DNA of 30,850 bases from a virus (lineage: Duplodnaviria > Heunggongvirae > Uroviricota > Caudoviricetes), in the IMG/VR virus record IMGVR_UViG_2917875804_000003; one strand, given 5' to 3'. The position numbers and the translations under genes were made by a program. Positions 2,753 through 30,850 of this stretch are shown in pieces; within the stretch, counting starts at the first letter, position 1; every line of letters starts with the position of its first letter. Under the pieces are notes generated by a model. That model did not search any database. It saw nothing but the letters and a program-made list of their open reading frames with translations, and had not been told where the DNA came from.

Positions 2753-2806
2753 AATACTGCTATCAGCAAGTCCAGAACGTTTCAACTTATCATGTGAGTG
2801 TCAGCA

Positions 2807-7904: not shown

Positions 7905-7914
7905 AAAAATCTCC

Positions 7915-13527: not shown

Positions 13528-13536
13528 CCCTGCCCC

Positions 13537-16820: not shown

Positions 16821-16865
16821 AAGGTGTTCTGCCCTCCACCGCGTCCGCCTGGCTTGCGGTAGTCT

Positions 16866-17567
16866 TTACCCTTGAGTCAGTTTTCGGATACGGGCAGCGA
16901 TTGTCTGCCGTGCCGTTCTGACGCCAATTTTTGAGTAGTGTTTTTCTGCAATAGCCAGCAGATGATCGGCCTTTTCCAGCGTTTCAATATCATCCACGCC
17001 CGCCGCCGTTTTCTGGCCATCGTCATTGCGTAGCAACTCCTGACCGGCAAACTTGAACCATTTGGCCGTCACTTGCTCATGTAGTCGCCAGGTGTTTTCC
17101 ACTCGCTCAAACGTGCGGGTGAAATAAGGCTCCACACTTTCCCCGCGCCCTGTGGTTTCCTGCGCCCATGCCAACATCGTATCCGCCACAAAAGTGGGAA
17201 AATTGCTGCGTAACCGATCCGGGGTTGCCTGCTGCTGGCTGATAGCAATGTCAGCCCAGTCCAGCGCCTGATCCAGATCGCCCACGTCAAACAGCCAGAT
17301 AACACACCAGGCAAAAACCGGATTGGCGTACACCTGACCACTCTCCAGATAGGCTTCCACAGTGGAACCCCAGCGTGGCAACAGCACATCGCGTTTGTAC
17401 TTGACGCGATCAGCGATGGTCGGCAGACTTCGAACATGTTCCACATCCGTTTCCAGCGCCCTGACTAGTAGGTGCATACTTTCCGTGGTTTCCAGTGCCT
17501 GCCGACGTTTCAGCTTTTGTTCCATCGCAATACGCTGGCTGTGACGCTGCGCAGGGGAAAGTGCCAT
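16866..17567 (-). CDS. M: terminase small (endonuclease) subunit, gpM-like
   Basis: 233 aa, immediately downstream of the capsid gene as in P2 O-N-M-L; size close to P2 gpM. Confidence 0.7.
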   Translation of the reverse strand: MALSPAQRHSQRIAMEQKLKRRQALETTESMHLLVRALETDVEHVRSLPTIADRVKYKRDVLLPRWGSTVEAYLESGQVYANPVFAWCVIWLFDVGDLDQALDWADIAISQQQATPDRLRSNFPTFVADTMLAWAQETTGRGESVEPYFTRTFERVENTWRLHEQVTAKWFKFAGQELLRNDDGQKTAAGVDDIETLEKADHLLAIAEKHYSKIGVRTARQTIAARIRKLTQG

Positions 17568-17570
17568 TTA

Positions 17571-18608
17571 TCAACCCTCCACCGGTTCGGAGACTTTGCC
17601 GATTGTCACAGCGGATTCATCAATAGCCGCATACAGCTCCGGCACTTCCACCGCGTAACCTTCATTGCGCAGGTATTTGTTTTCGAACTGCTTACGATCT
17701 TCAACAAACTCCGCCTTACGCATACGGGTATTGCGCTGGGTGTAGATGTGCAGGTTAGAAAGCGGCGTAACCACCATGCGTTTACCCGGCATAAACGGCG
17801 GGATAATAGCCGGACGGCCAGCAATGGTGCTTCCCAGCATCTGCGCCGCGATTTTTTCAGTCGGACGGTCTGCTGCCTGATACAGTCGGTATTGTTCAGC
17901 TGCGACCAGATCGGCACCAACCAGAACAACCAGACGCGGGTCATTGCGGAACTGTGCCGGGATTTTGGCGTTAATCAGATCGGACGCCATTGCATCCAGT
18001 GATTTGTAATCCCCGGCCTCATCAAGCACCACGGCATCCGTCATAATCTGATTGCCGCCCAGCAGCGTTTTCATACGCTCATGCCAGCCAACGTTCACAT
18101 CCTCGCCGTTCGGGTTAGTTTCCGGATCAGTGGTTTTCGCGCGACTTTTACCGTTAAAACCAATGCGCAACATATCCAGCGCAAAAGCCTGCGTGGTGAA
18201 TGCCTGTACCAGGTTGTAAAACTCGTTTTCGTCCTTACCGGCGTTTGCCCAGACAGAAAGCAGATCCCAGCGCAACGCGGCACAGCTGTCTGTTTCAACC
18301 AGGGAATAGTCATTACCGTCAACGCCTACCTGACGAATGAAACGGCCATTTTCGCTGCGGCCGGTATGCAGCACAGAGGAACCGACAGAGATCACCTGGC
18401 CACTCAGCTGGTCAACATCCAGACAGGTGATCATGTTCAGGAACTCGACGGACTCCAGCAACGCAAGACGCAGCGCATTTTCCTGTGGGTCATTCAGGGA
18501 AAAATATCGACTGGTATCACGCGCACCAAACTGCTGCGCCATCCCCGCCGAATATTTATCCAGTAAATCCCGCGCACGATTATTAAGGTGCATAAAACTC
18601 CCTCGCAA
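17571..18608 (-). CDS. N: major capsid protein, gpN-like
   Basis: 345 aa; several blocks resemble P2 gpN as I recall it (...IGFNGKSRAKTTD..., ...VGWHERMK..., ...DPRLVVLVGADLVAAEQY...); follows the scaffold gene. Confidence 0.8.
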   Translation of the reverse strand: MRGSFMHLNNRARDLLDKYSAGMAQQFGARDTSRYFSLNDPQENALRLALLESVEFLNMITCLDVDQLSGQVISVGSSVLHTGRSENGRFIRQVGVDGNDYSLVETDSCAALRWDLLSVWANAGKDENEFYNLVQAFTTQAFALDMLRIGFNGKSRAKTTDPETNPNGEDVNVGWHERMKTLLGGNQIMTDAVVLDEAGDYKSLDAMASDLINAKIPAQFRNDPRLVVLVGADLVAAEQYRLYQAADRPTEKIAAQMLGSTIAGRPAIIPPFMPGKRMVVTPLSNLHIYTQRNTRMRKAEFVEDRKQFENKYLRNEGYAVEVPELYAAIDESAVTIGKVSEPVEG

Positions 18609-18655
18609 TTAAGCGATTTAAAAATATATTCTGGGCTAATTAGCAATAAAGCGAA

Positions 18656-19459
18656 TTACAGGAAATTAAATTTCCCGGCTTGATCTTTTATAGTACGCCC
18701 CGGTGTACGGGTGTTTTTATTACCCAGTTCGTTAAAGCGGGTTACGATTTCTTTTGCATTATCGCGAATTGCCGCAAATTCCTGCGTATCCACCACTTCA
18801 GCAATTGTGTCAACATCACCCTGAACGTCATTCAGTTGAGTTTCAATTTTCGCCACTCGCGCTTCCAGATCGTTCACCACATTGGCAAGCGCCTGTAATT
18901 TATCTTCATCCGGAGCAAGATTATCCTGCGGCGTTTCATCTTCAAACTTTGGCTTAATACCAAACAGTTTCTGCCAGTTCTTCATTCTTGCTTCCTGTTT
19001 AATTTTTCCGTCGCGGGAAATTACACAGCTGTAATATCCCTGCTTTGTTAATTTATTGCGCCGACGACTAAAGCGCAGCCGTGTGGTGCCAACGCTGGCA
19101 GGTGTATCTGTTACCGCCAGCCCTTTCAGGTAAGTACGCCCGCTACCGCGCCAGTTTTCTTCCGGCTCAATGGAGAAGAACAAAAGCTGATCTTCATGAT
19201 TTGCGAAAATCAGACGCATATTCGGGCAAAGGCTGACATATAACCTTGCCAGTCCATCTTCACCATCATTCCAGGTAGCTTCCAGCACTTCACCAAAATT
19301 CCCGCAATCATCCTCATGTTCTGGCCAGATTAAAGCGACATAGTGGCTATAGTCATAGGTTTCCCCCATATCAATGATCCACTGCCGTTGAATTACCCTG
19401 CCATCAACGGTATCCCCTTCAGTAGCAACACACAGCCAGTCAGTTTTTAAATGTGACAT
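18656..19459 (-). CDS. O: capsid scaffolding protein, gpO-like
   Basis: 267 aa with coiled-coil C-terminal half; first gene of the leftward late operon, divergent from terminase P. Confidence 0.75.
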   Translation of the reverse strand: MSHLKTDWLCVATEGDTVDGRVIQRQWIIDMGETYDYSHYVALIWPEHEDDCGNFGEVLEATWNDGEDGLARLYVSLCPNMRLIFANHEDQLLFFSIEPEENWRGSGRTYLKGLAVTDTPASVGTTRLRFSRRRNKLTKQGYYSCVISRDGKIKQEARMKNWQKLFGIKPKFEDETPQDNLAPDEDKLQALANVVNDLEARVAKIETQLNDVQGDVDTIAEVVDTQEFAAIRDNAKEIVTRFNELGNKNTRTPGRTIKDQAGKFNFL

Positions 19460-19621
19460 ATCCCCCCCTGTTCCACTCCCTGACGCTGCAAATCAATTAT
19501 TGCCAAATAAAACCACCACCGCATTACGCTTTATTCTGAACAGTTCGGTTATAACGCTTTACCGAACAGACACGAATTAACACCACCGTTTTTTCATCAC
19601 AGCCACGGCATAATTATCCGC
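19460..19621. promoter_or_regulatory. divergent late promoter region between scaffold O and terminase P
   Basis: ~160-bp intergenic region between divergent operons; contains an imperfect dyad (GTTCGGT ... ACCGAAC, ~19531-19556) that could be an Ogr-type activator site. Not verified. Confidence 0.3.
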
Positions 19622-21397
19622 ATGGCTAAATACTCTGAAGAATTAAAAGGCGTTGTTCGTGCACTTTATCTGCGCCGCTATACGCCAAAGGAAATCGCAT
19701 CTGAATTAAATCTGCCGAATGCGCGGATCGTTTACTACTGGGCGGAGAAATACAGCTGGGCGGATTTGCTCAGTTTTGAAAGCACAGAGGAAGCAATTGA
19801 ACGCCGTTACCAGCTGCTGGCCAGCCGCGATAACAAAACCGATCTCGACCTGAAAGAAATGGACATGCTCATTGCTCATGCCACGAAACTGCGTGCGCAG
19901 AGTAATAAACACAAAGAGAAAATGGCCAGCGGTCAGAGTTCCGGGCAAGCAGCTGCGCGGGACAACAATGACGACGAACCACGCAGCAAACGGAAATACA
20001 AGAAAAACGATATTACGTCGCTGACGCAGGAGGACTTTGACGCATGGGCTGAAGAACATCTTTTTGAATATCAGAAACACCTGCGCAATAACATTGGCCA
20101 GCTTGTCAGGAACATCCTGAAAAGCCGCCAGATCGGTGCGACCTGGTATTTTGCGTTTGAAGCGTTTGAAAACGCGGTGATGACCGGCGATCCGCAAATC
20201 TTTCTGTCAGCGTCAAAGGCACAGGCTGAAGTGTTCCGGTCTTACATCGTGAATATTGCAGAGCAGTATTTCGGTATTACGCTAACCGGCAACCCGATCC
20301 GCTTAAGCAACGGCGCAGAACTACGTTTTCTCTCCACCAACAAAAACACCGCCCAGTCCTACAGTGGCCACCTGTACTGTGACGAATATTTCTGGGTGCC
20401 AAACTTTGCAAAACTTAACGAAGTGGCCAGCGCAATGGCCACACATGACAAGTGGCGCACCACCTATTTTTCAACGCCATCGGCAAAAACGCACCAGGCT
20501 TACCCGTTCTGGACGGGCGATGAGTGGAAACAGGGCAGTAAAAAACGTGCGGCCATTAAGTTTCCGTCCTTTAACGAAATGCGTGACGGCGGGCGACTCT
20601 GCCCGGATGGGCAATGGCGCTACGCCATTACGATGGAAGATGCCATTGCAGGCGGTTTCAACCTGGCGAACATCGAGAAACTTCGCAATCGCTACAACGA
20701 CGCCACTTTTAACATGCTCTATATGTGCGTGTTCGTTGACAGCAAAGATTCCGTTTTCAGCTTTTCCGATCTGGAAGCCTGCGGTGTTGAAATCGACACC
20801 TGGCAGGATCACAACCCTGATGCAGCGCGGCCATTTGGTGACAGGTCGGTATGGGGTGGCTTTGACCCGGCTCGCAGCGGTGATTTGTCCTGTTTTGTCA
20901 TCATCGCGCCGCCGATACTCGCCGTGGAGAAATTCCGCGTTCTGAAGGTGATTTACTGGAAAGGCATGAACTTCCGGTACCAAGCAAAACAGATCGAGCA
21001 ATTGTTTAAAAAATACAACTTCACTTATCTGGGTGTGGACGTTACCGGCATTGGCCAGGGTGTTTTTGACAACATTCAGCATTTTGCCATGCGCGTGGCC
21101 GTCCCTATTCGTTACGACCTGAACACCAAAAATCAACTGGTACTGAAAGCGGTAGACGTGGTGGAAAGCCAGCGTATTGAGTGGGATAAAAACCTGAAAG
21201 AGATCGCTGCCAGCTTTATGTCTGTGCGCCGAACCACCACACAAAGCGGCAACGCCATGACGTTTGTCGCTGACCGCAGCCAGGATACTGGCCACGCGGA
21301 GGCGTTCTGGGCGATTACCCACGGTCTGCATAACGAACCCCTTAACTATGAAAACAAACCTAAATCCCGCTGGGGTGTAAGGAAAGAGGCTGCATGA
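19622..21397 (+). CDS. P: terminase ATPase (large) subunit, gpP-like
   Basis: 591 aa (P2 gpP is ~590 aa); divergent from O and ATGA-coupled to the portal gene, as in P2 P-Q. Confidence 0.85.
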   Translation: MAKYSEELKGVVRALYLRRYTPKEIASELNLPNARIVYYWAEKYSWADLLSFESTEEAIERRYQLLASRDNKTDLDLKEMDMLIAHATKLRAQSNKHKEKMASGQSSGQAAARDNNDDEPRSKRKYKKNDITSLTQEDFDAWAEEHLFEYQKHLRNNIGQLVRNILKSRQIGATWYFAFEAFENAVMTGDPQIFLSASKAQAEVFRSYIVNIAEQYFGITLTGNPIRLSNGAELRFLSTNKNTAQSYSGHLYCDEYFWVPNFAKLNEVASAMATHDKWRTTYFSTPSAKTHQAYPFWTGDEWKQGSKKRAAIKFPSFNEMRDGGRLCPDGQWRYAITMEDAIAGGFNLANIEKLRNRYNDATFNMLYMCVFVDSKDSVFSFSDLEACGVEIDTWQDHNPDAARPFGDRSVWGGFDPARSGDLSCFVIIAPPILAVEKFRVLKVIYWKGMNFRYQAKQIEQLFKKYNFTYLGVDVTGIGQGVFDNIQHFAMRVAVPIRYDLNTKNQLVLKAVDVVESQRIEWDKNLKEIAASFMSVRRTTTQSGNAMTFVADRSQDTGHAEAFWAITHGLHNEPLNYENKPKSRWGVRKEAA

Positions 21398-22455
21398 GTA
21401 AAAAGAAACGCTTTGTTAAGCGCGACCAGCGCGGCGACAAATCAAAAAAGATGAGCATTATCACATTCGGCAAACCTGAACCGGTTCTGACTACCGGCAC
21501 AGATTACCGTGATATCTGGTACGACAATGCCGCCGATCACTTCACCCAGCCGATTGACCGGCTGGCACTCGCGCAACTGATTAATCTGAACGGTCAGCAC
21601 GGCGGCATCATTCACGCCCGCAAAAACATGATTGTTTCAGATTACCAGGGGGGCGGACTTATTCACGACCAGCTGGAAGCGGCAGCGTATGACTATATAA
21701 CCTTTGGGGATATTGCGATTGCCAAAATTCGTAACGGCTGGGGAGACGTTATCGCACTTGAACCCTTACCCGGTCTGTATATTCGCCGCCGCAAAGTCAG
21801 AGATAACGCCCTGGATAAGCCCGGTGACTACGTAGTGTTACAGGAAGGGGAACCGCAGATATGGCCAGAAGAAGATATTATCTTTATCAAAATTTATGAC
21901 CCACAACAGCATATCTACGGACTTCCGGACTACATCGGCGGTGTGCATTCCGCGTTACTTAACAGTGAAGCGGTCATTTTCCGACGCCGCTACTACCACA
22001 ACGGTGCGCACACAGGCGGAATTCTTTATACCCGCGATCCCAGCATGACGGACGAAATGGAGGAAGAAATTGAACAGCAGCTGCGTGACAGCAAAGGGAT
22101 CGGGAACTTCTCCACCATCCTTGTAAACATTCCCGGCGGAGACGGCGACGCCATCAAGTTCATTGAAATGGGTGATATTTCTGCTAAGGATGAATTTGCC
22201 AACATCAAGAACATCAGCGCACAGGACATTCTGAACGCGCACCGTTTCCCTGCCGGCCTCGCCGGTATTGTCCCGCAGAACACTGCCGGACTGGGGGATG
22301 TTGAAAAGGCTGAACGCATTTATAAGAAAAGCGAAATTGCCCCCATCCAGCGCCGTTTCATGCTGGCCGTTAACAACGATCCCGAAATACCGGAAAGGTT
22401 GCACCTAAACTTTGATTTAAGTTACATAGAATCAATAGATAAAGGTGCGGCATGA
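21394..22455 (+). CDS. Q: portal vertex protein, gpQ-like
   Basis: 353 aa, AAGGAAAGAGG RBS, coupled to the terminase gene; size and position match P2 gpQ. Confidence 0.85.
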   Translation: MSKKKRFVKRDQRGDKSKKMSIITFGKPEPVLTTGTDYRDIWYDNAADHFTQPIDRLALAQLINLNGQHGGIIHARKNMIVSDYQGGGLIHDQLEAAAYDYITFGDIAIAKIRNGWGDVIALEPLPGLYIRRRKVRDNALDKPGDYVVLQEGEPQIWPEEDIIFIKIYDPQQHIYGLPDYIGGVHSALLNSEAVIFRRRYYHNGAHTGGILYTRDPSMTDEMEEEIEQQLRDSKGIGNFSTILVNIPGGDGDAIKFIEMGDISAKDEFANIKNISAQDILNAHRFPAGLAGIVPQNTAGLGDVEKAERIYKKSEIAPIQRRFMLAVNNDPEIPERLHLNFDLSYIESIDKGAA

Positions 22456-22505
22456 TGCGAAACTGGCTAAAATCCATGCTTCATTTAACAGCGGGAGCAT
22501 GGAAT

Positions 22506-22775
22506 ATGCGAGTTCTGAAAATCGAATGCCCGGAATGCGGCTCAAAGGCTGTTATTCGTAAAACGAACAGGAAGCACCGACAAATTGCGGATATTTACTG
22601 CGCCTGCTCAGATGTTGAATGTGGCCACACATTTGTTATGAATCTGACATTTTCCCACACTCTTAGCCCCAGCGCTAAAACGGGTGATGCGGTGGTGCAA
22701 AAAATACTGAGTGCACTTTCTCCCGCTCAGCGCCAGGTGGCATTCGATTTACTGAAAGTGACTCCCGCTGCCTAA
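22506..22775 (+). CDS. ogr: Ogr/Delta-family zinc-finger late transcription activator
   Basis: MRVLKIECPECGSKAVIRKTNRKHRQIADIYCACSDVECGHTF: C-x2-C ... C-x4-C zinc finger typical of P2 Ogr / 186 B; ATG 22506 with GGAG RBS. Confidence 0.75.
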   Translation: MRVLKIECPECGSKAVIRKTNRKHRQIADIYCACSDVECGHTFVMNLTFSHTLSPSAKTGDAVVQKILSALSPAQRQVAFDLLKVTPAA

Positions 22776-22810
22776 AAAGCCCCCAGAATGAGGGCTTTTC
22801 CCTTCCTTTT
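22776..22810 (+). terminator. rho-independent terminator after the ogr-like gene
   Basis: AAAGCCC-cagaatga-GGGCTTT hairpin followed by a T-rich tract, directly after the stop at 22773-22775. Confidence 0.7.
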
Positions 22811-23081
22811 TAACCATTTTGTGAACCTCTTCCGCAAGTTCTCCAATCCAGGCCAAAGCGATTGTTTTTTTCTCTCTGGTTACTTTCGTAATCATGGGCA
22901 ATTTTAGCTAATAATTCAATGCGTTCCAGCTGTGCCGACGCCTCCAAAAGATCCATTTAGCCCCCACAAGCAATAGTGACTGGATAAGTATCCAGTATAC
23001 CGTACACCGTAAAGCACGAATAGTGAAATTTAATTTCCTTCCATCTACTGAGAAATGCATGCATTTCACATATTTACCCTG

Positions 23082-25103
23082 CTAGACCCACCCCGGCCAT
23101 AACTCGTTTAATGGCTCGTTTTGAATCTCTTTAAGCCACCCATTACGGTAAACCAGTCCCCCTTGGCCAAACATCAAACCACTACCCCGCAGGAGAATGG
23201 CTATTTCTTCATTAGAACCGTTAAAACCCCGACTGCATAATTCCAGTTTTAACCGTCTGAGGATTCCCCCCTCCGTACAGTTATTGACAGAACTCCAAGG
23301 GGCGGCGTTGCCGCCAGAAAACCCCGCCTCCGCTGGCGCTTCGGCCAACTTCGCAACCTTTTGCCACTTAACCAGACGGGTGCAAACTTCCGAATCAGGA
23401 ACCAAAGGAGAATAAACCCCCTGTACGCGCTGCACGTCCTCTGCGTACTCGTTGCCCTGTTCCGTAATTTCATAGGCCAGACGAACAACCAGATCACGGC
23501 GGGCAACCAGTGCACCGCCCTGCGCCTGGGTATATGCAGCCCAGTCCCCGACATCAGCAGCGGCCAGAACCGCATCCATTCTGCGATCGGTCAGCACCTG
23601 ATCCCGCAACCGACGCAGCTCACGCCAGACACTTACCGGCGCACCACCAATCTGCTGAAACTGACGAATACGCCAGCGTGAAGCCCATGCAGAAACGGAC
23701 TTAGCCATATCACGCAGGTTTTCGCCGGTTTCTTCGTCCTGCTCACCATCCAGCGCAAAACCATCAATATTTTTTGAAATGTATTTCGCGATGTAGCCCG
23801 TGGCCGAACCTTTGGCGGGATCGATAACTTCAACATGAAAACGCGCCTTCAGCGCCTTTTCAGATTGCAGTTCTTCAGAATCGGTAATTCTGGCGTGATA
23901 GCAAAGAATATCGCGTACCGTGTCCACGTCATGCGGACGCATAAAAAGCAACATATGCCAGTGCGGTGTCCCGTCATGGTGAGGCTCAACAACCCGAAAC
24001 CCAAATACATGAATACCCGCACGCGAGATCGCTGCGCGTGCTTTTGCCCATACGCCGCATAAATAGCGCTGGGTATCCTGCGGTGTACATCCATCCCATT
24101 GCGATACAAAGCCACCTTTGCTGTGCACTGCGTGGAAACGTGATGGCGCGGTGATGGTGTAAAACTCACCGGCCAGCCCTTCTTCATTGGCCATATCTTC
24201 AAACCCTCGCATTCTTACCATTAGTTCACATCGACGGATCGCCGGATTTGCAATGCTGCGGTGCACCATGCTGTCCAGTGCAATGCGCAGCCCCTCATCA
24301 TTCAGCAGATCAAACTTTTTAAAGAACTCCAGATTCCGCTTTTTCTGGTCTATCCATTCGTCCAGTGTTTTGCGGGATACATAAGCGCTGGCCGCTTTTT
24401 GTACCTGTCCCACCGCGATGGCCATATGTTCGCGCTGCATATCACGCGCACGTTTAAGACGTAGGTACCACCATTCCGGCGCCATCATGCGCAGTATCCC
24501 GGATTCCGCCTTACGCATTTCCAGTTGACCTTCATTGGCCTCATGTTCAGCCCAGTACGGCGGCTGGTTATTCAGCATCAGGCAACCCGCGCAAAGATGG
24601 CGGTATGATTCCAAGGTGCGGCGATGCAGCTCTCTGGCGTCGTCAGTGCCGGAGTCAAACTGTTCGGTGAAGTCATAAAGTGACTGGGAAATCCAACCAG
24701 ATACCTGGCCAGCCAGTTTTTTAAGATCAGGACGGTCTAGTGACGGCAAGCGCTCCAGCGACTTACCAAAAGTAAGATCAGCAGCGTCAGCGGCCAGCGA
24801 GTAACGCGCAGCCACTTTGCGCAGACGTGGCAATACACTCCCGCCGATAGTCTGGCGCAGGAATGTATTGGCACGACAACGCCCGTCACGACCAGCAAAC
24901 AGCTTTTCGTAACGACGGCCAAAATACCCGGCTAACCAGTCGGGTATCTCATGCAGGTACCGGGCTCTCCATTCATAATCCTGCGGATTTACAGCCCACA
25001 AACGGCGTTCTGTGATTGTCGCGTCTGCCGGTATGCAAGATGCGAAAGTTTCACGCCGCCACGTATCGACAGCATAGAAGTGTTCCTTTATAGCCAACAT
25101 CAT
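23082..25103 (-). CDS. A: replication initiation protein A (rolling-circle HUH endonuclease, P2/186 gpA family)
   Basis: 673 aa with HUH motif (GTPHWHMLLF) and catalytic tyrosine motif (TGYIAKYISK); last gene of the early operon. Confidence 0.9.
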   Translation of the reverse strand: MMLAIKEHFYAVDTWRRETFASCIPADATITERRLWAVNPQDYEWRARYLHEIPDWLAGYFGRRYEKLFAGRDGRCRANTFLRQTIGGSVLPRLRKVAARYSLAADAADLTFGKSLERLPSLDRPDLKKLAGQVSGWISQSLYDFTEQFDSGTDDARELHRRTLESYRHLCAGCLMLNNQPPYWAEHEANEGQLEMRKAESGILRMMAPEWWYLRLKRARDMQREHMAIAVGQVQKAASAYVSRKTLDEWIDQKKRNLEFFKKFDLLNDEGLRIALDSMVHRSIANPAIRRCELMVRMRGFEDMANEEGLAGEFYTITAPSRFHAVHSKGGFVSQWDGCTPQDTQRYLCGVWAKARAAISRAGIHVFGFRVVEPHHDGTPHWHMLLFMRPHDVDTVRDILCYHARITDSEELQSEKALKARFHVEVIDPAKGSATGYIAKYISKNIDGFALDGEQDEETGENLRDMAKSVSAWASRWRIRQFQQIGGAPVSVWRELRRLRDQVLTDRRMDAVLAAADVGDWAAYTQAQGGALVARRDLVVRLAYEITEQGNEYAEDVQRVQGVYSPLVPDSEVCTRLVKWQKVAKLAEAPAEAGFSGGNAAPWSSVNNCTEGGILRRLKLELCSRGFNGSNEEIAILLRGSGLMFGQGGLVYRNGWLKEIQNEPLNELWPGWV

Positions 25104-25149
25104 ATGCTGGCCTCAAGAAGCGATGGCGAAGGACATTTTAGTGGTGTTT

Positions 25150-25383
25150 TTATTGCCATGCCGCACCGCCTTTGCTGCAAATAGCCTCGGCCTCTTCTCG
25201 GATCAACTCAACGATTTCCGCTGCGCTTAAACCTTCATTTGCTGCATGAGTGGCCAGCTTATCCAGGCGGATGGAACACAGGTCAGCAACTGCGGCTTTA
25301 CCTTCCTGCGTGGCTTTAGCAAGCATGTCCAGTAGATCAGTACCAAGCTTTGTTGCGGGTAAATCCTGATGTGTCATATACAT
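25150..25383 (-). CDS. hypothetical early-operon protein (~78 aa)
   Basis: ATG at 25383 with AAGGGA RBS (ORF track 25150..25434); immediately upstream of gene A. Confidence 0.4.
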   Translation of the reverse strand: MYMTHQDLPATKLGTDLLDMLAKATQEGKAAVADLCSIRLDKLATHAANEGLSAAEIVELIREEAEAICSKGGAAWQ

Positions 25384-25450
25384 TTTGGGTTCCCTTAAGG
25401 CAAAAGAATCCCCGGCCACTTGAACTGTGACCAAAAATTCAGACAGTTAA

Positions 25451-25852
25451 TTAGTGAAAATGGGTTAGTACTGTGGCGGCTGAATAGTTCGGTGCCGGAA
25501 TCAGATGCAGCTCATAGGTTGTCTGCCACCACTCCTGGATTATTGATTTTATCTCGCCAACACCCAGCGCCCCGGCTGTATAGAAAATCGCGCGAATCCC
25601 TGCCAGCGCTTCGATCTGCGCATCTTTGCTCTGTGCTTCGCGGTACACGCAGCACCAGAAAGCGGCATTAATAGCTAACCAGTGGCGCAGATTCATCATG
25701 TGTTCGGCGTCATTGAAAAAGAAAGGATGCAAAGCGATGCGACCATTTTCACTGGTGTTTTTCGCTGCAAACGATACAACATAGATATGAGGGACGCCCC
25801 ATACAGCGAGTTCTTCCCGCAACGATTTACCCTCAACGGAAATAATGGTCAT
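25451..25852 (-). CDS. hypothetical early-operon protein (133 aa)
   Basis: Same strand and operon as cII ... A; no recognisable motif. Confidence 0.4.
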   Translation of the reverse strand: MTIISVEGKSLREELAVWGVPHIYVVSFAAKNTSENGRIALHPFFFNDAEHMMNLRHWLAINAAFWCCVYREAQSKDAQIEALAGIRAIFYTAGALGVGEIKSIIQEWWQTTYELHLIPAPNYSAATVLTHFH

Positions 25853-25863
25853 TAGTGATTCCT

Positions 25864-26280
25864 CTATTGCTGGAACTTATGGACGATATGAGGCGCGATC
25901 ACCATCTGCACCCCACTATTACTACAAATTGGATGTGCTTTTTTTATTGGCCGATTCGCGGTACGTTTCGAAAAATCGCTGTCACGTAAACTGCCAAAAC
26001 CGTCAAATGTTAATCGCGCCCGTGATATCCCCTGACGCAGTTGAATCATGTACCGATAGCCCAGGCGTTCATAAATCTCCCGCCAGCAGCATTTGCATAA
26101 ATGAGCTTTAAATACTCTGGAACCTGAAGTAATCGCAGCAGCATGAAGAACCACACCGCGCCATTCTGGTGTTAAGTCGTCCCACCATTCAGCGGCCTTA
26201 CTGCTTTCGCTGAAATATTTACGGCGGATCTGTTTTAATTGCTCAAGTCCACGCTTTTGCTGTTCCTGACTAATCGCCAT
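25864..26280 (-). CDS. hypothetical early-operon protein (138 aa)
   Basis: Same strand and operon; basic, with a CKCC cysteine cluster; no family assigned. Confidence 0.4.
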   Translation of the reverse strand: MAISQEQQKRGLEQLKQIRRKYFSESSKAAEWWDDLTPEWRGVVLHAAAITSGSRVFKAHLCKCCWREIYERLGYRYMIQLRQGISRARLTFDGFGSLRDSDFSKRTANRPIKKAHPICSNSGVQMVIAPHIVHKFQQ

Positions 26281-26309
26281 AGCGCCCTCTTCCCACCGTG
26301 CTGTGATAG

Positions 26310-26492
26310 TTAACGATCAAAGTTGAAAGACAGACGACGGACAAGACGTGGCGCGCGACAAAACGGAACGTCCAAACAAGAGTGATTGTGAAACCACACG
26401 CGCCCGCGTTCATCTCCCTGGCGGCTACTTTCTAGATGGCGCTTTATGGTGAAATACACTATCGTGCCGCTGGTTTTTTTAGGCTTGCGCAT
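26310..26492 (-). CDS. hypothetical small protein (60 aa)
   Basis: ATG 26492 with AAGGGGA RBS (ORF track extends to 26615 without RBS support); contains an A7 run, so frame is uncertain. Confidence 0.25.
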   Translation of the reverse strand: MRKPKKTSGTIVYFTIKRHLESSRQGDERGRVWFHNHSCLDVPFCRAPRLVRRLSFNFDR

Positions 26493-26509
26493 ATTATTCC
26501 CCTTTAGAT

Positions 26510-26683
26510 TTATAACCCCATCAAACGCCACCACCACGGGCGGCGCTGTTGCTGGCCATTGAATTTGTACATGTGACCGGGGTTCCAACGCTGCCCGTTG
26601 GGCAGTTCTATCCAACCCGTTGATCCACTTGGCAACTGCATTGCTGGTGATTCATTTTTCAGGTAGGTGGCAAACGCTTTCAT
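26510..26683 (-). CDS. hypothetical small protein (57 aa), in the fil/dhr-equivalent position of 186
   Basis: ATG 26683 with GGAG-type RBS, directly downstream of cII; below the ORF-track size cutoff, found by manual translation. Confidence 0.3.
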   Translation of the reverse strand: MKAFATYLKNESPAMQLPSGSTGWIELPNGQRWNPGHMYKFNGQQQRRPWWWRLMGL

Positions 26684-26692
26684 AGTGCTCCC

Positions 26693-27196
26693 TCATATCA
26701 GGCCGGTGGCATTGATTGTGACCAGCGCTACCGCAGCGGCCAGGACGGGCGTAGAGTGAAAACGACTTTCCACGGTATAAGCCAGCACGGATAAGCTACG
26801 AATTGCATCGCGGGCGCGATCCAGAATTTGAGTACGACGAGCGGCAGTCATATGGCAAGTTGATACGGCTTCCCCAGCAATCGCCCCCACGCACGCAGTG
26901 GCGCTTAGAGCACACAGTTGCATGTTGCCTTCAGTGGCATTATTCACAGGCACGGATGGCAGGCAGTTAATTTGGCTTAACATCCCATCCAGTAAACGTG
27001 CATCTTCGGTGTAATCCGTAATGGATATAAGCTCATCGCATGTTAAACGGTGCGGTTGCGCTGGATTTAGTTTGTTGCGCAGGATCTGCGGCCTTATACC
27101 AACGGCAACAGCCACATCTTCAAGATTGTGCTCAATTGCAAATGCTCGGCAAGCCGCATCAAATCGCGCATGTTTAGAGATCTGGTAATCAAACAT
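26693..27196 (-). CDS. cII: CII-type transcriptional activator (phage 186 CII family)
   Basis: MFDYQISKHARFDAACRAFAIEHN...LRNKLNPAQPHRLT...CLPSVPVNN closely resembles 186 CII as I recall it; 167 aa; follows Apl/Cox. Confidence 0.75.
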   Translation of the reverse strand: MFDYQISKHARFDAACRAFAIEHNLEDVAVAVGIRPQILRNKLNPAQPHRLTCDELISITDYTEDARLLDGMLSQINCLPSVPVNNATEGNMQLCALSATACVGAIAGEAVSTCHMTAARRTQILDRARDAIRSLSVLAYTVESRFHSTPVLAAAVALVTINATGLI

Positions 27197-27226
27197 TGTT
27201 TGCCTCTCGCTAATCCGTAGGATGAA

Positions 27227-27448
27227 TTACGCGTTAAGTGAAATATCACATTCACTTAAAGCCTGAATGGTTAGCGCGGCCATGTTGACCTCAACCAGGC
27301 CTTTCTTCTGCTTACCCTTAGGTTTAATGGGCAATTTCCCGTATTCGATCAGATTTCTGGCAGTTTCTTTGTTTGTACCAGTACGACGGCAATATTCGTC
27401 TAAAGGCAGGTAAGGTTCCGGTATGATGATTGTAATGCTCGGACGCAT
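27227..27448 (-). CDS. Apl/Cox-like excisionase / Cro-type regulator
   Basis: ~74-aa product from ATG 27448 (GGAG RBS); first gene of the operon divergent from cI; small basic DNA-binding-like protein. Confidence 0.55.
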   Translation of the reverse strand: MRPSITIIIPEPYLPLDEYCRRTGTNKETARNLIEYGKLPIKPKGKQKKGLVEVNMAALTIQALSECDISLNA

Positions 27449-27567
27449 AAGGCAAACTCCATTAGTCAACCTGTACGGTAATACAGGGCTGTAACTGTCA
27501 ATATTCACTTAAACCTACAAAGCAGAGTTTAAACTCGCTTTGAGAAAGATTTCAAGGAAAAATTTTC
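27449..27567. promoter_or_regulatory. lysis-lysogeny switch region (divergent promoters and operators between apl/cox and cI)
   Basis: Intergenic region between divergent regulatory genes; contains CTGT-N8-ACAG dyad at 27471-27486 just upstream of apl. Confidence 0.5.
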
Positions 27568-28148
27568 GTGAAACTACAAATTGAATTTTCTCATGGCGGA
27601 TCAGAAGTCTTGGACAGAGTCATCCAGGCGTATGGTTTCAACACAAAATTAGCCCTGGCCGAACATCTTGATATAGCAAGTAGCAGCCTGGCTAATCGCT
27701 ACAAGAGGGATTTTTTTTCCAGCAGATATCGTTGTTAGATGCATGGCTGAAACGGGAGCAACTCTGGAATGGCTTGCGACTGGGCAAGGAAGAAAGTTTA
27801 ACGATGACGAATTAGACATCATGAAACTGCCGCGTAAGAAGATTGTGGACGGAAAACTCTATGATTCCGGTTTGCTAATGCTCGATAAGGTTACTTTTTT
27901 ACCTGGTAAGCCTTTACCACAGAATCCAATCTGTGTGATTGACAACGCAATGCAGTACATTGTTGATCAACACTTTCCCGAAGTTTACGACGATGATTGG
28001 TTAGTTGAAATTGAAGGAAAAACAAGTGTGAGAACCCTTACGCGCATCCCCGTAGGCAAAGTTCGAGTGAGTGGCGTTGGGATGGCATTTGATTGCGCTA
28101 TCGAAGATATAAAAAATTTTAGGTCGTATTATCTTAACTATAAAATAA
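27568..28148 (+). CDS. cI: CI repressor, phage 186 CI-like; frame interrupted twice at homopolymers (T8 27711-27718, A6 28111-28116)
   Basis: GTG 27568 with AAGGA RBS. With one base removed per run the product (~190 aa) reads VLDRVIQAYGFNTKLALAEHLDIASSSLANRYKRDFFPADIVVRCMAETGATLEWLATGQG ... WLVEIEGK ... DIKILGRIILTIK, paralleling 186 CI end to end. Confidence 0.75.
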
Positions 28149-28162
28149 TAAGGAAAATTATA

Positions 28163-28734
28163 ATGATAGATTACAAGACTGCATCTAAAGACCAATTAAA
28201 AGTAGAAATGAAACGATTGTCCGCCGCTGTTTCAGATACGCCATTTGGTACAAAAAAAAGAATTTTTTCATCTTCCCGAAGTTTTAAACACCGGCGAGGA
28301 ACCGCTTGGCATAGTAAGCGGTATGATGGATGGCAACACCTGGTTAATAACTTTAACTAACCAACGCGTTATCTTCCTCGATAAAGGGATGATATTTGGT
28401 GTTAAGCAGGTCGATATTAGCCTTCGTAACATTGTAAGCGTTGGCGGAAAGACTGGACTGATATTTGGTGAGATAATGATTTCAACAAGTGGACAGAATT
28501 ACACCATAAAAAAACGTTATAAAATCCTCCGTAATTCCTTTTACCAACCTTGTTAATGAGACAAGGAATAGTCTGGACAAGCCACAAGTTATCACCGCTC
28601 CTACAAGCTCCAACGAAAAATCTTCATTTGATGATGTCATGGATAAAATTGAACGTTTGGCTGAAATGAAAGCAGAAGGCATTCTTACTGAAGAAGAATT
28701 TCAGCAGCAAAAACAACGCATTTTAAACAGCTAA
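28163..28734 (+). CDS. cargo protein with bacterial PH-like domain and SHOCT-like C-terminal motif; frame interrupted at A8 (28252-28259) and A7 (28508-28514)
   Basis: ATG 28163 with AAGGAAA RBS. Middle frame ...LPEVLNTGEEPLGIVSGMMDGNTWLITLTNQRVIFLDKG...GEIMISTSG... has a bPH-like pattern; C-terminus ...DKIERLAEMKAEGILTEEEFQQQKQRILNS resembles SHOCT. AT-rich relative to flanking cI and int. Confidence 0.5.
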
Positions 28735-28737
28735 GCT

Positions 28738-29826
28738 ATGTCTGTAAGAAAATTAACAAATGGCCAGTGGATTGCCGATTTCTACACGGTGGATCGAAGC
28801 AATGGTAAAGCCGGTAAGCGTATTCGTAAAAAATTCGCTACAAAAGGTGAAGCCCTGGCCTACGAGAACTATACGCTTCAGCAAGTGGAGAACTCCCCCT
28901 GGCTTGGCGAGGGTAAAGACCTCCGTACTCTAAGCGACCTAATCAACATGTGGTACGAACGCCACGGCGTAGCTTTGCGCAACGGTCAAAAGCGTAAAGA
29001 CGCAATGACATGGGCGGCAGAGTGTATGGGATTCCCGCTGGCCACAGAGTTTAATGCTCAACTGTTTACAGCATACCGCGCAAAAAGGCTTGATGGGCAT
29101 TATGCCCGCACTAACAGAGTATCCAAGGTTTCCCCGAAAACAATGAACCTTGAACATGCTTACTTTCTGGCTATGTTCAATGAGCTTAAACGGATTGGAG
29201 AATGGTCAGCCCCTAACCCACTGGAAAACGTCAGACAGTATCGCACTGATGAAACCGAAATGGCTTTCCTCACTGCTGAAGAAATTGATCGGCTTTTGCT
29301 GGAATGCAAACGCAGTAAAGTAAGTTACTTAGAGTTAGTAGTAAAAATTTGCCTGGCGACCGGCGCAAGGTGGAATGAAGCGGCGACACTCAAAAGCTCC
29401 CAGATTGCTGGCGGAAAAGTCACCTTCATAAAAACAAAAGGGAAAAGGAACCGTACCATTCCCTTAGATGATGAACTTCTGGCTGAAATTTCGGAAACAA
29501 AAGGCGCTCTGTTTCCGAAGCCCTGCTATAACGCTTTTCGTTCCGCCCTGGAACGTGCAGGTATTGAATTGCCTTCTGGTCAGCTAACCCACGTATTACG
29601 CCATACATTTGCCAGCCACTTTATGATGAATGGCGGGAACATTCTGGTTCTGCAAAAAATTCTCGGCCACGCTGACATCACTATGACAATGCGTTATGCC
29701 CATTTCGCCCCAAGCCACCTTGAAGATGCTATGCGACTTAACCCCTTAAAAATGTCGCAAAAAATGTCGCTGCAGCTTAGAAATACTGCCGAATACTCAC
29801 AGACATTAACTAACGTAACTTATTGA
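28738..29826 (+). CDS. int: tyrosine integrase (P2/186 Int family)
   Basis: 362 aa; N-terminus MSVRKLTNGQW...KKFATKGEALAYENYTL parallels P2/186 Int; C-terminal catalytic region HVLRHTFASHFMMNGGNILVLQKILGHADITMTMRYAH (R...H-x-x-R...Y). Confidence 0.9.
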   Translation: MSVRKLTNGQWIADFYTVDRSNGKAGKRIRKKFATKGEALAYENYTLQQVENSPWLGEGKDLRTLSDLINMWYERHGVALRNGQKRKDAMTWAAECMGFPLATEFNAQLFTAYRAKRLDGHYARTNRVSKVSPKTMNLEHAYFLAMFNELKRIGEWSAPNPLENVRQYRTDETEMAFLTAEEIDRLLLECKRSKVSYLELVVKICLATGARWNEAATLKSSQIAGGKVTFIKTKGKRNRTIPLDDELLAEISETKGALFPKPCYNAFRSALERAGIELPSGQLTHVLRHTFASHFMMNGGNILVLQKILGHADITMTMRYAHFAPSHLEDAMRLNPLKMSQKMSLQLRNTAEYSQTLTNVTY

Positions 29827-29871
29827 TAACACTGTAAGTTATTGTTTTTCGTAGATAGTTGATGCTTTATA

Positions 29872-29889
29872 ATATAGCCTGTGCTATAT
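29872..29889. promoter_or_regulatory. MntR-box-like palindrome in the mntS promoter
   Basis: Perfect inverted repeat ATATAGC-ctgt-GCTATAT, about 60 bp upstream of the mntS start codon; matches the TAGC-N4-GCTA core of Mn-responsive MntR operators. Confidence 0.5.
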
Positions 29890-29947
29890 CTGTATGTAAT
29901 GCAATCATCCCTCATGGATCGACGGGATTAGCAAGTCAGGAGGTCTT

Positions 29948-30076
29948 ATGAATGAGTTCAAGAGGTGTATGCGCGTGTTTAGTCACTCTCCCTTTAAAGT
30001 ACGGTTAATGCTGCTCTCGATGTTGTGCGATATGGTCAACAACAAACCGCAGCAAGATAAACCTTCCGATAAATAG
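29948..30076 (+). CDS. mntS: small manganese-homeostasis protein MntS (42 aa)
   Basis: AGGAGG RBS then ATG; product MNEFKRCMRVFSHSPFKVRLMLLSMLCDMVNNKPQQDKPSDK matches E. coli MntS as I recall it. Confidence 0.7.
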   Translation: MNEFKRCMRVFSHSPFKVRLMLLSMLCDMVNNKPQQDKPSDK

Positions 30077-30346: not shown

Positions 30347-30850
30347 ATGAACTTAACCCTTAAAGAATCGCTTGTTTCCCGTAGCCGGGTTTTTAGCCCG
30401 TGGACTGCGTTCTACTTTTTACAGTCGCTATTGATTAACCTTGGTTTAGGTTATCCCTTTAGTTTTCTCTATACCGCCGCTTTTACTGCCGTTTTGCTTT
30501 TGTTATGGCGGATGTTGCCGCGTGTGCAAAAAACCTTAATAGGTGTCTGTTCGCTGGTGGCGGCCTGTTATTTTCCTTTTGCTCAGGCGTACGGTGCGCC
30601 TAACTTCAATACATTGCTGGCGCTGCATTCCACCAATATGGAAGAGTCGACCGAAATTCTTACGATCTTCCCGTGGTATAGCTATCTGGTCGGCTTATTT
30701 ATTTTTGCGCTCGGCGTGATTGCGATCAGGCGGAAAAAAGAGGATGAAAAAGCACGCTGGAATAAATTCGACACCCTGTGTCTGGTATTCAGTGTGGCGA
30801 CATTTTTTTGTCGCTCCGGTTCAAAATCTCGCCTGGGGCGGCGTATTTAA
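30347..30850 (+). CDS. opgE: phosphoethanolamine-transferase-type inner-membrane protein, N-terminal part (OpgE/YbiP-like), 3'-truncated by window edge
   Basis: MNLTLKESLVSRSRVFSPWTAFYFLQSLLINLGLGYPF... multi-TM N-terminus that I recognise as E. coli YbiP/OpgE; open to the window end; same orientation as mntS, as in the E. coli K-12 order. Confidence 0.6.
   Translation: MNLTLKESLVSRSRVFSPWTAFYFLQSLLINLGLGYPFSFLYTAAFTAVLLLLWRMLPRVQKTLIGVCSLVAACYFPFAQAYGAPNFNTLLALHSTNMEESTEILTIFPWYSYLVGLFIFALGVIAIRRKKEDEKARWNKFDTLCLVFSVATFFCRSGSKSRLGRRI

What the first reader, a model, noticed from the sequence alone, without database searches (positions are those of the whole stretch)
29827..30076. Prophage junction sits immediately upstream of the Mn-responsive mntS promoter
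The int stop codon (29824-29826) is only ~45 bp from a perfect MntR-box-like palindrome and ~120 bp from the mntS start codon. The attachment site therefore lies within the mntS upstream region, and the gene I would expect divergent from mntS (mntR) is not on the other side. Integration may have displaced upstream promoter elements or the neighbouring regulator gene and altered manganese-responsive control. No tRNA gene is present at this att site.
Basis: partly seen in the sequence, partly recalled or inferred. Interest (0 to 1): 0.4.

Follow-up and report, generated by a model that had tools for sequence, protein, structure and literature searches.

The report
Prophage attachment site inside mntS promoter
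A P2-family prophage has inserted at a 15-base site inside the shared control region between the manganese genes mntR and mntS, leaving both genes and the manganese operator intact but replacing the upstream half of the predicted mntS promoter with phage DNA. This is ordinary site-specific integration at a site I found no description of.

Summary
Window 29864-29878 (GCTTTATAATATAGC) is the attR core of a 30.2-kb ESSI-2-like, P2-family prophage in Escherichia sp. E4208.

- **Both junctions found.** The matching attL core lies 340 bp before the window's first base on the same contig. Immediately beyond it are mntR, ybiR and ldtB. So mntR was moved 30 kb away, not lost.
- **What the core overlaps.** It contains a perfect -10 hexamer, TATAAT, and the left half of the MntR operator (ATATAGC-CTGT-GCTATAT, 29872-29889).
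- **What survives next to mntS.** Because the core is duplicated, the -10, the whole operator, the 5' leader and an MntS identical to K-12's are all preserved.
- **What is lost.** The predicted -35 (TTAACG) and the A-tract upstream are replaced by phage DNA (TTTTCG). They now sit at attL, pointing into prophage cargo genes.
- **How common.** The same integrase type sits beside mntS in 30 of 5,422 complete E. coli genomes, and in Citrobacter koseri, C. freundii and Enterobacter cloacae. The target lies in a ~70-bp block that is nearly invariant across genera, which plays the role a tRNA gene usually plays.
- **Caveats.** No regulatory effect has been measured, and I could not obtain a mapped start site. 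The int stop at 29824-29826 is probably a homopolymer sequencing error; the true stop is probably 29778-29780.

Interest is modest.

The parts
1..29863 (.). Body of the ESSI-2-like, P2-family prophage. The window starts 326 bp inside its left end. Cargo genes lie at 1-2800 (+), tail, lysis and head genes at 2807-19459 (-), terminase, portal and ogr at 19622-22775 (+), the replication gene at 23082-25103 (-), and 186-type cII, fil and cI at 26693-28360.
   Evidence: 96% identical over 15 kb to an annotated E. coli prophage. 93-96% identical to Escherichia phages ESSI2_ev129, ev040 and ev015 over the head and replication genes.
28738..29826 (+). Tyrosine integrase gene as read (362 aa). The true product is probably 346 aa, with TAG at 29778-29780.
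   Evidence: Pfam Int_N and Phage_integrase. Catalytic residues R211, H285-x-x-R288, H311 and Y320. Its 90%-identity cluster is mostly 346-aa proteins. Removing two +1 homopolymer calls restores 346 aa.
29752..29770 (+). Two direct ATGTCGC repeats, 12 bp apart, inferred to be the arm-type Int-binding sites of the P arm.
   Evidence: These are the only two plus-strand RTGTCGC matches in the 30.8-kb window. A matching pair (GTGTCGC, ATGTCKC) lies 60-77 bp beyond the core on the attL arm in all three lysogen types examined. Conserved in lysogens of five species.
29816..29828 (-). IHF-consensus match TATCAATAAGTTA, between the arm repeats and the core.
   Evidence: Matches WATCAANNNNTTR. There are 3 matches in the window against 1.5 expected, so only its position is suggestive. 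Conserved across lysogens.
29846..29851 (+). Phage-derived hexamer TTTTCG, occupying the -35 position 16 bp upstream of TATAAT. It replaces the host's TTAACG.
   Evidence: Consensus scan of attB, attL, attR and attP; alignments.
29864..29878 (.). attR core GCTTTATAATATAGC. The same 15 bp is present in attB and attL as GCTATATAATATAGC.
   Evidence: Uninterrupted E. coli aligns from 29864 rightwards. attL sequences from E. coli 1919D3, E. coli SC477, L086 and the window's own contig L101 end host homology at ...ATATAGC.
29868..29873 (+). TATAAT, the predicted mntS -10 hexamer, inside the core.
   Evidence: Shimada et al. 2014 list TTAACG-16-TATAAT for mntS, based on an RpoD holoenzyme-binding peak in this spacer. 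No mapped start site was obtainable.
29872..29889 (.). MntR operator palindrome ATATAGC-CTGT-GCTATAT. Its left half lies in the core and its right half in host DNA.
   Evidence: The same ATAGC-N4-GCTAT motif lies upstream of K-12 mntH. Invariant in Escherichia, Salmonella and Citrobacter. mntS is repressed by Mn-MntR.
29871..29900 (-). Predicted leftward promoter ATTACA-18-TATATT, the candidate mntR-ybiR promoter. At attR it points into the phage arm, antisense to int.
   Evidence: Consensus scans. Listed for mntR-ybiR by Shimada et al. 2014. Not confirmed by start-site data.
29948..30076 (+). mntS, 42 aa, with Shine-Dalgarno AGGAGG at 29938-29943.
   Evidence: identical to K-12 MntS; Pfam MntS in the gene call.
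30347..30850 (+). 5' part of opgE (phosphoethanolamine transferase). The apparent stop at the window's end follows a T7 run at 30803-30809.
   Evidence: Annotated opgE in E. coli. K-12 has T6 at that run.

Best explanation
Window 29827-30076 holds the right junction (attR) of a 30.2-kb ESSI-2-like, P2-family temperate phage, followed by the host gene mntS. The phage's tyrosine integrase recombined its attP with a 15-bp host core, GCTATATAATATAGC, in the 185-bp divergent control region between mntR and mntS.

**Shown**
- The core is duplicated at both prophage ends.
- mntR, ybiR and ldtB lie intact just beyond the left end.
- At attR the core rebuilds TATAAT and the left operator half-site. mntS therefore keeps its -10, its complete MntR operator, its leader and its ORF.
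- Everything to the left of the core is now phage P-arm DNA.
- The same integrase type occupies the same place in three genera.
- The target lies within a ~70-bp block that is almost invariant across genera.

**Inferred**
- Two ATGTCGC repeats and an IHF-like site in the P arm are the accessory sites of attP.
- The phage uses this conserved block the way other phages use tRNA genes, as a stable and widely shared target.
- Mn-MntR repression of mntS is retained, because the operator is intact and MntR acts in trans.
- Basal mntS promoter strength is probably lower. The predicted -35 (TTAACG, 4 of 6 matches) and the upstream A-tract are swapped for TTTTCG (3 of 6).
- If the mntR promoter is ATTACA-18-TATATT, it is split in the same way.
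- The host -35 elements now face into the prophage from both ends.
For: **Junction and core**
- Uninterrupted E. coli aligns from 29864 onwards.
- attL in E. coli 1919D3 and SC477, in L086, and in the window's own contig ends host homology at ...GCTATATAATATAGC.
- On that contig the attL core lies at window coordinate -340. The two cores are 30,204 bp apart.

**mntR**
- It is intact at attL: annotated in E. coli lysogens and 155 aa in L086 and L100.

**Integrase**
- Pfam domains and catalytic residues.

**Phage type**
-.

**attP anatomy**
- Arm repeats on both arms and an IHF-like site.

**Same site in other hosts**
- C. koseri, E. cloacae and C. freundii.
- In E. coli, 30 genomes carry the int-mntS junction and exactly 30 of 5,422 have an interrupted spacer.

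**Conservation of the target**
-.

**Operator identity**
-. Repression of mntS by Mn-MntR is stated.

**Promoter hexamers**
-, plus Shimada et al. 2014.
Against: - No experimentally mapped start site for mntS or mntR could be obtained. Waters et al. 2011 and the start-site datasets I tried are not held or hold no entry. The promoter assignments are therefore consensus predictions inside a holoenzyme-binding peak.
- My count of the spacer for TTAACG...TATAAT is 15 bp, not the 16 printed by Shimada et al..
- Salmonella has TAAAAC in place of TATAAT, so this hexamer is not universally needed.
- A second candidate mntR promoter, TTGTRC-16-TACAAT, lies wholly to the left of the core and would be untouched.
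- No expression data exist for any lysogen.
- Binding of Int, IHF or MntR to the named sites was not tested.
Confidence: 0.85

Rival explanations
1. The integration has no regulatory effect. The promoter elements that matter for both genes stay on the correct side. mntS would depend essentially on its consensus -10 plus the operator, both regenerated by the core. mntR would use the proximal promoter to the left of the core. The site would then be chosen only because it is conserved and palindromic.
For: - A perfect TATAAT and the full operator are retained at attR.
- A candidate mntR promoter, TTGTRC-16-TACAAT, sits in the invariant block CATTGTAAACCAGAGTTG to the left of the core.
- The native -35 is itself weak (4 of 6 matches, 15-bp spacer by my count).
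- Lysogens occur in several genera and in hundreds of contigs, so integration is at least not strongly deleterious.
Against: - The ~25 bp to the left of the core (ACAAAAAATTAACGTTTTAGCAATA) is invariant across three genera, which argues that it does something.
- Shimada et al. place both promoters across the core.
- Only 0.55% of complete E. coli genomes are lysogens at this site. That figure is compatible with a cost but does not show one.
Confidence: 0.35
2. Integration adaptively rewires transcription. Host promoter halves are captured to drive phage genes. At attL, the mntS -35 and A-tract plus the core -10, with only half an operator, would transcribe the plus-strand cargo genes. At attR, the mntR-type promoter with a full MntR operator would read antisense into int, linking int expression or excision to manganese.
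For: - The TTAACG-15-TATAAT hybrid is intact at attL and faces the cargo genes. The first cargo gene is on that strand in all three prophage variants examined.
- In the 1919D3 type, the first cargo CDS starts only 80 bp after the core, directly after the arm repeats. That leaves little room for a promoter of its own.
- ATTACA-18-TATATT, with the operator between its hexamers, is retained at attR facing int.
- No strong terminator separates these elements.
Against: - Everything here rests on consensus hexamers, with no transcript data.
- The phage arm next to attL differs among variants, and other promoter-like sites occur there.
- Cargo genes in such phages usually carry their own promoters.
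- The annotated start of the 1919D3 cargo gene is unverified.
Confidence: 0.15
3. The junction is not a true attachment site. It would be a rearrangement, a deletion that removed mntR, or an assembly artefact.
For: The window alone shows no second copy of the core and no mntR. The assembly has many homopolymer errors.
Against: - The second core and mntR lie 340 bp outside the window on the same contig.
- Identical junctions occur in 30 complete E. coli genomes and in three further species.
- The errors are single-base homopolymer calls, not misjoins.
Confidence: 0.01

Closest known systems
Coliphage P2 integration at non-tRNA chromosomal sites (locI, locH and others), and coliphage 186, by their tyrosine integrases with IHF (from my own knowledge of the P2/186 literature; not read here)
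   Same: - P2-family virion and replication genes, and a 186-type cI/cII/fil switch region.
- A tyrosine integrase encoded next to attP.
- A short core duplicated at both prophage ends.
- Arm repeats and an IHF-like site in attP.
   Different: - The integrase DNA is only about 68% identical to 186 int over part of its length.
- The target is the mntR-mntS control region rather than a P2 loc site or, as for 186, a tRNA gene.
- The core is a 15-bp palindrome that doubles as a -10 and operator segment.
Escherichia phages ESSI2_ev129, ESSI2_ev040 and ESSI2_ev015, and Cronobacter phage ESSI-2
   Same: 93-96% nucleotide identity to the three Escherichia phages over capsid, terminase, portal, ogr and replication genes, and a similar genome size of about 30.6-30.9 kb.
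   Different: - None of these phage records appears among the matches to this integrase and att region. The best phage match is 69% identical.
- The integration module therefore seems to have been exchanged.
- Cronobacter phage ESSI-2 is only about 79% identical, over half of the region compared.
Integration into tRNA or tmRNA genes, the usual conserved-target strategy of temperate phages and islands
   Same: The target is a short sequence that is nearly invariant across genera, and its functional part is rebuilt by the duplicated core.
   Different: No tRNA or tmRNA is present. The conserved target is regulatory DNA, and only the part from the core rightwards is rebuilt for mntS.
Lambda sib retroregulation of int (from my own knowledge)
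   Same: Sequences that are contiguous across attP in the phage become separated in the prophage, so transcripts crossing att have different neighbours in the two states. Here int and the cargo genes are co-directional across attP.
   Different: No RNA element or processing site has been identified here. The parallel is one of topology only.
Bacterial bidirectional promoters with a shared, symmetrical -10 region (Warman et al. 2021, as summarised in PMC12825309)
   Same: The genes are divergent. Overlapping -10-like hexamers lie on opposite strands within a palindrome, TATAAT (+) at 29868-29873 and TATATT (-) at 29871-29876.
   Different: The predicted start sites would be 16 bp apart, whereas the commonest spacings are 18, 10 and 23 bp. 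mntR and mntS do not appear in the supplementary files held for PMC12825309, and no start-site data were available.

Membership tests
Tyrosine recombinase / phage integrase | Catalytic domain (Pfam PF00589) with an N-terminal phage-integrase domain | tested here: met
   PF24624 Int_N, E = 5.8e-31; PF00589, E = 4.3e-25.
Tyrosine recombinase / phage integrase | Catalytic residues R, H-x-x-R, H and the tyrosine nucleophile | tested here: met
   R211 (ARWNE), H285-VL-R288, H311 (GHAD) and Y320 (RYAHF).
Tyrosine recombinase / phage integrase | Element flanked by a direct repeat of the core that is present once in empty sites | tested here: met
   The core is at 29864-29878 and at window coordinate -340 on the same contig. 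It is single-copy in 5,392 uninterrupted E. coli spacers. See the alignments.
Tyrosine recombinase / phage integrase | Arm-type repeats and host-factor sites in attP | tested here: inconclusive
   Paired RTGTCGC repeats lie on both arms in every lysogen examined. The IHF consensus match is positionally suggestive only. Binding was not tested.
Tyrosine recombinase / phage integrase | Demonstrated recombination or excision activity | not testable with these tools
   Needs an integration or excision assay.
P2-family (Peduoviridae) prophage, ESSI-2-like | P2-type head, packaging, replication and late-control genes: GPO scaffold, P2-family capsid, gpM, terminase, portal, GPA replication protein, Ogr/Delta | tested here: met
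   Annotated homologous prophage at 96% identity. Pfam families of the called genes. 93-96% identity to the ESSI2_ev phages.
MntR operator (E. coli type) | Inverted repeat ATAGC-N4-GCTAT, as upstream of mntH | tested here: met
   A single match in the window, at 29874-29887. A single match in 40 kb around K-12 mntH, directly upstream of mntH.
MntR operator (E. coli type) | Located in the control region of a gene repressed by Mn-MntR | tested here: met
   It lies 59 bp upstream of the mntS ATG. Repression of mntS by MntR is stated in PMC4361602, PMC8632737 and PMC9806134.
MntR operator (E. coli type) | Physical binding of MntR to this sequence at attR, and to the half-site hybrid at attL | not testable with these tools
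   Needs EMSA, footprinting or ChIP. The paper that mapped the site (Waters et al. 2011) is not held.
tRNA/tmRNA-gene attachment site | A tRNA or tmRNA gene overlapping the core | tested here: not met
   ARAGORN finds none in the window. Rfam finds nothing at gathering threshold.
Bidirectional promoter with a shared -10 region | Divergent start sites 10-23 bp apart that arise from overlapping -10 elements | tested here: inconclusive
   Overlapping -10-like hexamers are present on both strands. No start-site data could be found.

The most novel reading that the evidence does not exclude
This phage lineage targets the shared -10 and operator segment of the divergent mntR/mntS promoter, so that integration swaps promoter halves between host and phage. 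Three consequences would follow.

- In the lysogen, the host's mntS -35 and A-tract plus the duplicated -10, now lacking half of the MntR operator, would drive the prophage's lysogenic-conversion cargo genes at attL.
- The mntR-type promoter, with its full operator, would fire antisense into int at attR. That would make cargo expression, or int and excision, respond to manganese.
- mntS and mntR would be left with phage-supplied -35 regions, shifting the host's manganese set-point.
Probability: 0.15. Interest if true: 0.55.

Novelty: new member of a known kind. Interest (0 to 1): 0.3.

Why it matters
- **A precisely defined att site.** The report defines to the base an attachment site used by a widespread group of P2-family prophages in Escherichia, Citrobacter and Enterobacter. 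I could not find this site described in the papers available to me.
- **Regulatory DNA as a target.** A conserved promoter-operator block can serve as an integration target in the way tRNA genes do.
- **A testable question.** MntS overproduction makes E. coli manganese-sensitive (PMC4361602). A change in basal mntS or mntR promoter strength in lysogens could therefore shift manganese homeostasis. That is a simple question to test, comparing lysogen with cured strain.
- **Limits.** If no expression change is found, this is an ordinary integration event. The site is occupied in only 0.55% of complete E. coli genomes.

Tried and rejected
1. **Second core in the window.** None was found. The window starts 326 bp inside the prophage, so attL had to be recovered from related lysogens and from the same contig.
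2. **Mapped start sites for mntS/rybA and mntR.**
   - Waters et al. 2011 is not held.
   - The supplements of Martin et al. 2015 list only mutagenesis primers.
   - The Cappable-seq and SMRT-Cappable-seq supplements have no entry.
   - Thomason 2015, Kroger 2012 and Warman 2021 are not held.
   - The supplements held for the bidirectional-promoter paper PMC12825309 do not list mntR or mntS.
3. **Rfam.** No family matches, so no RybA model could fix the 5' end.
4. **Intrinsic terminator between int and the core.** The scan finds none. The local hairpin is weak, at -10.1 kcal/mol with z = -0.9.
5. **More distant integrase relatives** (50-75% aa identity; Buttiauxella, Kosakonia, Pantoea, Erwinia and others).
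   - None lies next to the core, an MntR box or mntS.
   - The 16 loci scanned, including the closest relatives, contain no tRNA gene. The specificity therefore belongs to the roughly 90%-identity cluster.
6. **Phage database.** No deposited phage carries this integrase and att region. The best match is 69% identical.
7. **Literature.** Searches for this att site found nothing relevant.
8. **An outward-facing promoter in the attL arm** (GCGACA-19-TATAAT) that might replace the mntR promoter. I treated it as chance, because it is not conserved in the other two arm variants.
9. **ATGAGA-18-CATAAT as the main mntR promoter.** I judged this unlikely, because its start site would fall inside the mntR Shine-Dalgarno sequence.
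10. **PADLOC scan of the cargo proteins.** No hits apart from weak WYL-domain matches in the C. freundii variant.

Full report
**What is in the sequence**

The int ORF as read runs from 28738 to 29826. It is followed by the palindrome ATATAGC-CTGT-GCTATAT at 29872-29889, a Shine-Dalgarno AGGAGG at 29938-29943, and mntS at 29948-30076. The 5' part of opgE begins at 30347. MntS is identical to the K-12 protein. No tRNA or tmRNA gene is found in the window, and no Rfam family matches.

Everything to the left of the junction is a P2-family prophage.
- It is 96% identical over 15 kb to an annotated E. coli prophage. That prophage carries a GPO scaffold, a P2-family capsid, gpM, terminase, portal, Ogr/Delta, the GPA replication protein and 186-type CI, CII and Fil.
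- It is 93-96% identical to Escherichia phages ESSI2_ev129, ev040 and ev015 over the head and replication genes.
- None of those phage records matches the integrase region. The best phage match there is 69% identical.

**The host**

Exact protein look-ups name the host as Escherichia sp. E4208, an unclassified Escherichia. The source contig is PDIC01000004.1 of GCA_004745305.1. Its flanks are about 91% identical to K-12.

**Where the junction is**

In K-12 the gene order is ldtB-ybiR-mntR, then divergently mntS-opgE-ompX, with 185 bp between the mntR and mntS start codons.
- Uninterrupted E. coli genomes align with the window only from 29864 rightwards.
- Left junctions were read in two E. coli lysogen types, 1919D3 and SC477. 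They were also read in a Logan assembly (L086) that matches window 1-10656 with no substitutions, and in the window's own contig (L101).
- In all four, host sequence runs up to ...TTTTAGCAATAGCTATATAATATAGC and phage sequence follows (TTTC...).
- The sequence common to attB, attL and attR is therefore 15 bp, GCTWTATAATATAGC, at window 29864-29878.
- Position 4 is A in attB and attL and T in attR. This places strand exchange to the right of that position (inference).
- On the window's contig the attL core starts at window coordinate -340. The prophage is therefore 30,204 bp from core to core, and the window simply begins 326 bp inside it.

**mntR is not lost**

mntR, ybiR and ldtB follow directly beyond attL on the same contig. 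MntR is 155 aa, with two differences from K-12, in L086 and in a second NCBI assembly, L100. In the window's own assembly the mntR gene call is shortened by a T8-versus-T7 run.

**Sequencing errors in this assembly**

Every difference between this assembly and the independent assemblies is a +1 homopolymer call. There are five in the prophage and three at the left junction.

The same kind of error probably explains four other apparent frameshifts:
- the split cI gene, at the T8 run 27711-27718;
- the split DUF6338 gene, at the extra T at window 1060;
- the premature stop in opgE after the T7 run at 30803-30809;
- the 16-residue extension of Int.

Removing one A from each of the runs 29748-29752 and 29759-29764 gives a 346-aa Int ending ...LNPLKCRKNVAAA. 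That matches the mostly 346-aa cluster and the other lysogens. The real int stop is therefore probably TAG at 29778-29780, about 84 bp from the core.

**Anatomy of attP**
- The integrase has the Int_N and Phage_integrase domains and the R, H-x-x-R, H and Y catalytic residues.
- The P arm carries two ATGTCGC direct repeats at 29752 and 29764. These are the only plus-strand RTGTCGC matches in the window.
- The P' arm at attL carries a matching pair 60-77 bp beyond the core in every lysogen type.
- An IHF-consensus match lies between the repeats and the core, at 29816-29828. There are 3 matches in the window against 1.5 expected, so only its position is suggestive.

These are the usual parts of a P2/186/lambda-type attP. 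Their function here is inferred.

**How general the site is**
- In 5,422 complete E. coli genomes the mntR-mntS spacer is uninterrupted in 5,392 and split in 30.
- Exactly 30 genomes carry the int-mntS junction.
- The 90%-identity integrase cluster has 357 member sequences, from E. coli, E. marmotae, Citrobacter and Enterobacter.
- In C. koseri, E. cloacae and C. freundii the gene sits in the same place, with the order cI-(cargo)-int-mntS-opgE-ompX and an essentially identical attR.
- More distant relatives (50-75% aa identity) in other genera are not next to this core, an MntR box or mntS. The 16 such loci scanned, including the closest ones, hold no tRNA gene.
- The target lies within a ~70-bp block, CACAAAAAATTAACG...TGTAATGCA, that is nearly invariant in Escherichia, Salmonella and Citrobacter.
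- The 201-bp stretch around it is at least 99% identical in 5,196 E. coli genomes.

My reading is that this conserved regulatory block plays the role a tRNA gene usually plays as a phage target.

**What the core overlaps**

The palindrome is the same ATAGC-N4-GCTAT motif that occurs once, directly upstream of mntH, in 40 kb of K-12. mntS is repressed by Mn-MntR. Calling it the MntR operator is therefore well founded, although binding was not tested here.

The core contains the operator's left half-site (29872-29878) and a perfect TATAAT (29868-29873). Consensus scans, together with Shimada et al. 2014 (who found an RpoD holoenzyme-binding peak in this spacer), give two promoters:
- TTAACG-(15 by my count, 16 as printed)-TATAAT for mntS;
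- ATTACA-18-TATATT on the other strand (29900 to 29871) for mntR-ybiR.

On that reading both -10 hexamers lie in the duplicated core, and each -35 lies on the far side of the core from its own gene.

**Consequences of integration**

Shown by sequence:
- At attR, mntS keeps TATAAT, the whole operator, its leader and its ORF.
- The TTAACG hexamer and the A-tract upstream of it are replaced by phage DNA. TTTTCG now sits at the -35 position.
- At attL, the host TTAACG, A-tract and TATAAT remain together but face the prophage's plus-strand cargo genes. Only the left operator half is kept there (ATATAGC-TTTC-GTTATAC).
- At attR, ATTACA-18-TATATT and the full operator face the 3' end of int.

Inferred:
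- MntR repression of mntS is kept.
- Basal mntS strength is probably reduced.
- mntR strength is reduced as well, if ATTACA-18-TATATT is its real promoter.

Three caveats apply.
- No mapped start site was available despite several attempts.
- Salmonella has TAAAAC where E. coli has TATAAT.
- A second mntR promoter candidate, TTGTRC-16-TACAAT, lies in the invariant block CATTGTAAACCAGAGTTG to the left of the core and would be untouched.

A fully neutral integration therefore remains a serious rival.

**The more adventurous reading**

Across attP in the circular phage, int and the cargo genes are co-directional. After integration the cargo genes lie downstream of the host-derived hybrid promoter at attL. 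In the 1919D3 type, the first cargo CDS starts only 80 bp after the core, immediately after the arm repeats. Promoter capture is therefore plausible for that variant. There are no transcript data, and the arms differ between variants, so I give this low probability.

**Comparison with what is known, and verdict**

This is standard tyrosine-integrase, P2-family lysogeny at a non-tRNA intergenic site. I found no paper describing this particular site, but my literature access was limited.

I classify it as a new member of a known kind, of modest interest.

Noticed in passing
window 1060, 1488, 1817, 2227, 7376; also 27711-27718, 29748-29752, 29759-29764 and 30803-30809; L101 left junction: This assembly (GCA_004745305.1) makes systematic +1 homopolymer calls. 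All eight differences from independent assemblies of the same prophage and locus are an extra base in a run of 4-8. The same error probably accounts for the apparent frameshifts in DUF6338, the acetyltransferase, cI, int, opgE and mntR.
   Followed up: yes
window 1-2800 (+ strand); L086 1845-4918: There is a variable cargo region at the prophage's left end. It holds a truncated zinc-ribbon ORF, an 85-aa ORF, a DUF6338 membrane protein and a hexapeptide-repeat acetyltransferase. E. coli 1919D3 carries a different acetyltransferase there, and SC477 has the zinc-ribbon ORF intact. No PADLOC defence model matches any of them.
   Followed up: partly
window 28245-28734; L098 1764-2483; L099 1627-2514: There is a second variable slot between cI and int. 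The window has a bacterial PH-domain (bPH_3) ORF and a 31-aa SHOCT ORF. The Enterobacter lysogen has a 239-aa ORF of unknown family, the C. freundii lysogen has a 295-aa WYL-domain protein, and 1919D3 has nothing.
   Followed up: partly
alignment A3 (L001 2450-2470 and homologues); equivalent to about 45-62 bp left of the attL core: The block CATTGTAAACCAGAGTTG in the mntR leader and promoter region is invariant in Escherichia, Salmonella and Citrobacter, while the sequence around it varies. It contains a minus-strand TACAAT. Its function is unknown to me.
   Followed up: no
window 29864-29878 compared with L001 2501-2515: In empty sites the att core is a perfect 15-bp palindrome, GCTATAT-A-ATATAGC. 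It shares its right arm with the MntR operator, giving three consecutive GCTATAT/ATATAGC half-sites. The phage copy carries T at position 4 in every lysogen examined.
   Followed up: partly
L005 4033-4128 (Bacterium BS0013 contig end): A draft contig encoding an integrase 89% identical to this one ends exactly at ...GTTAATGCTT, the first bases of the core. This looks like an assembly break at the duplicated core.
   Followed up: no
window 17500-25100 compared with 28700-29900: The phage is a mosaic. Its head and replication genes are 93-96% identical to the ESSI2_ev phages, but none of those records matches the integrase and att module. This implies exchange of integration modules within the group.
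   Followed up: partly
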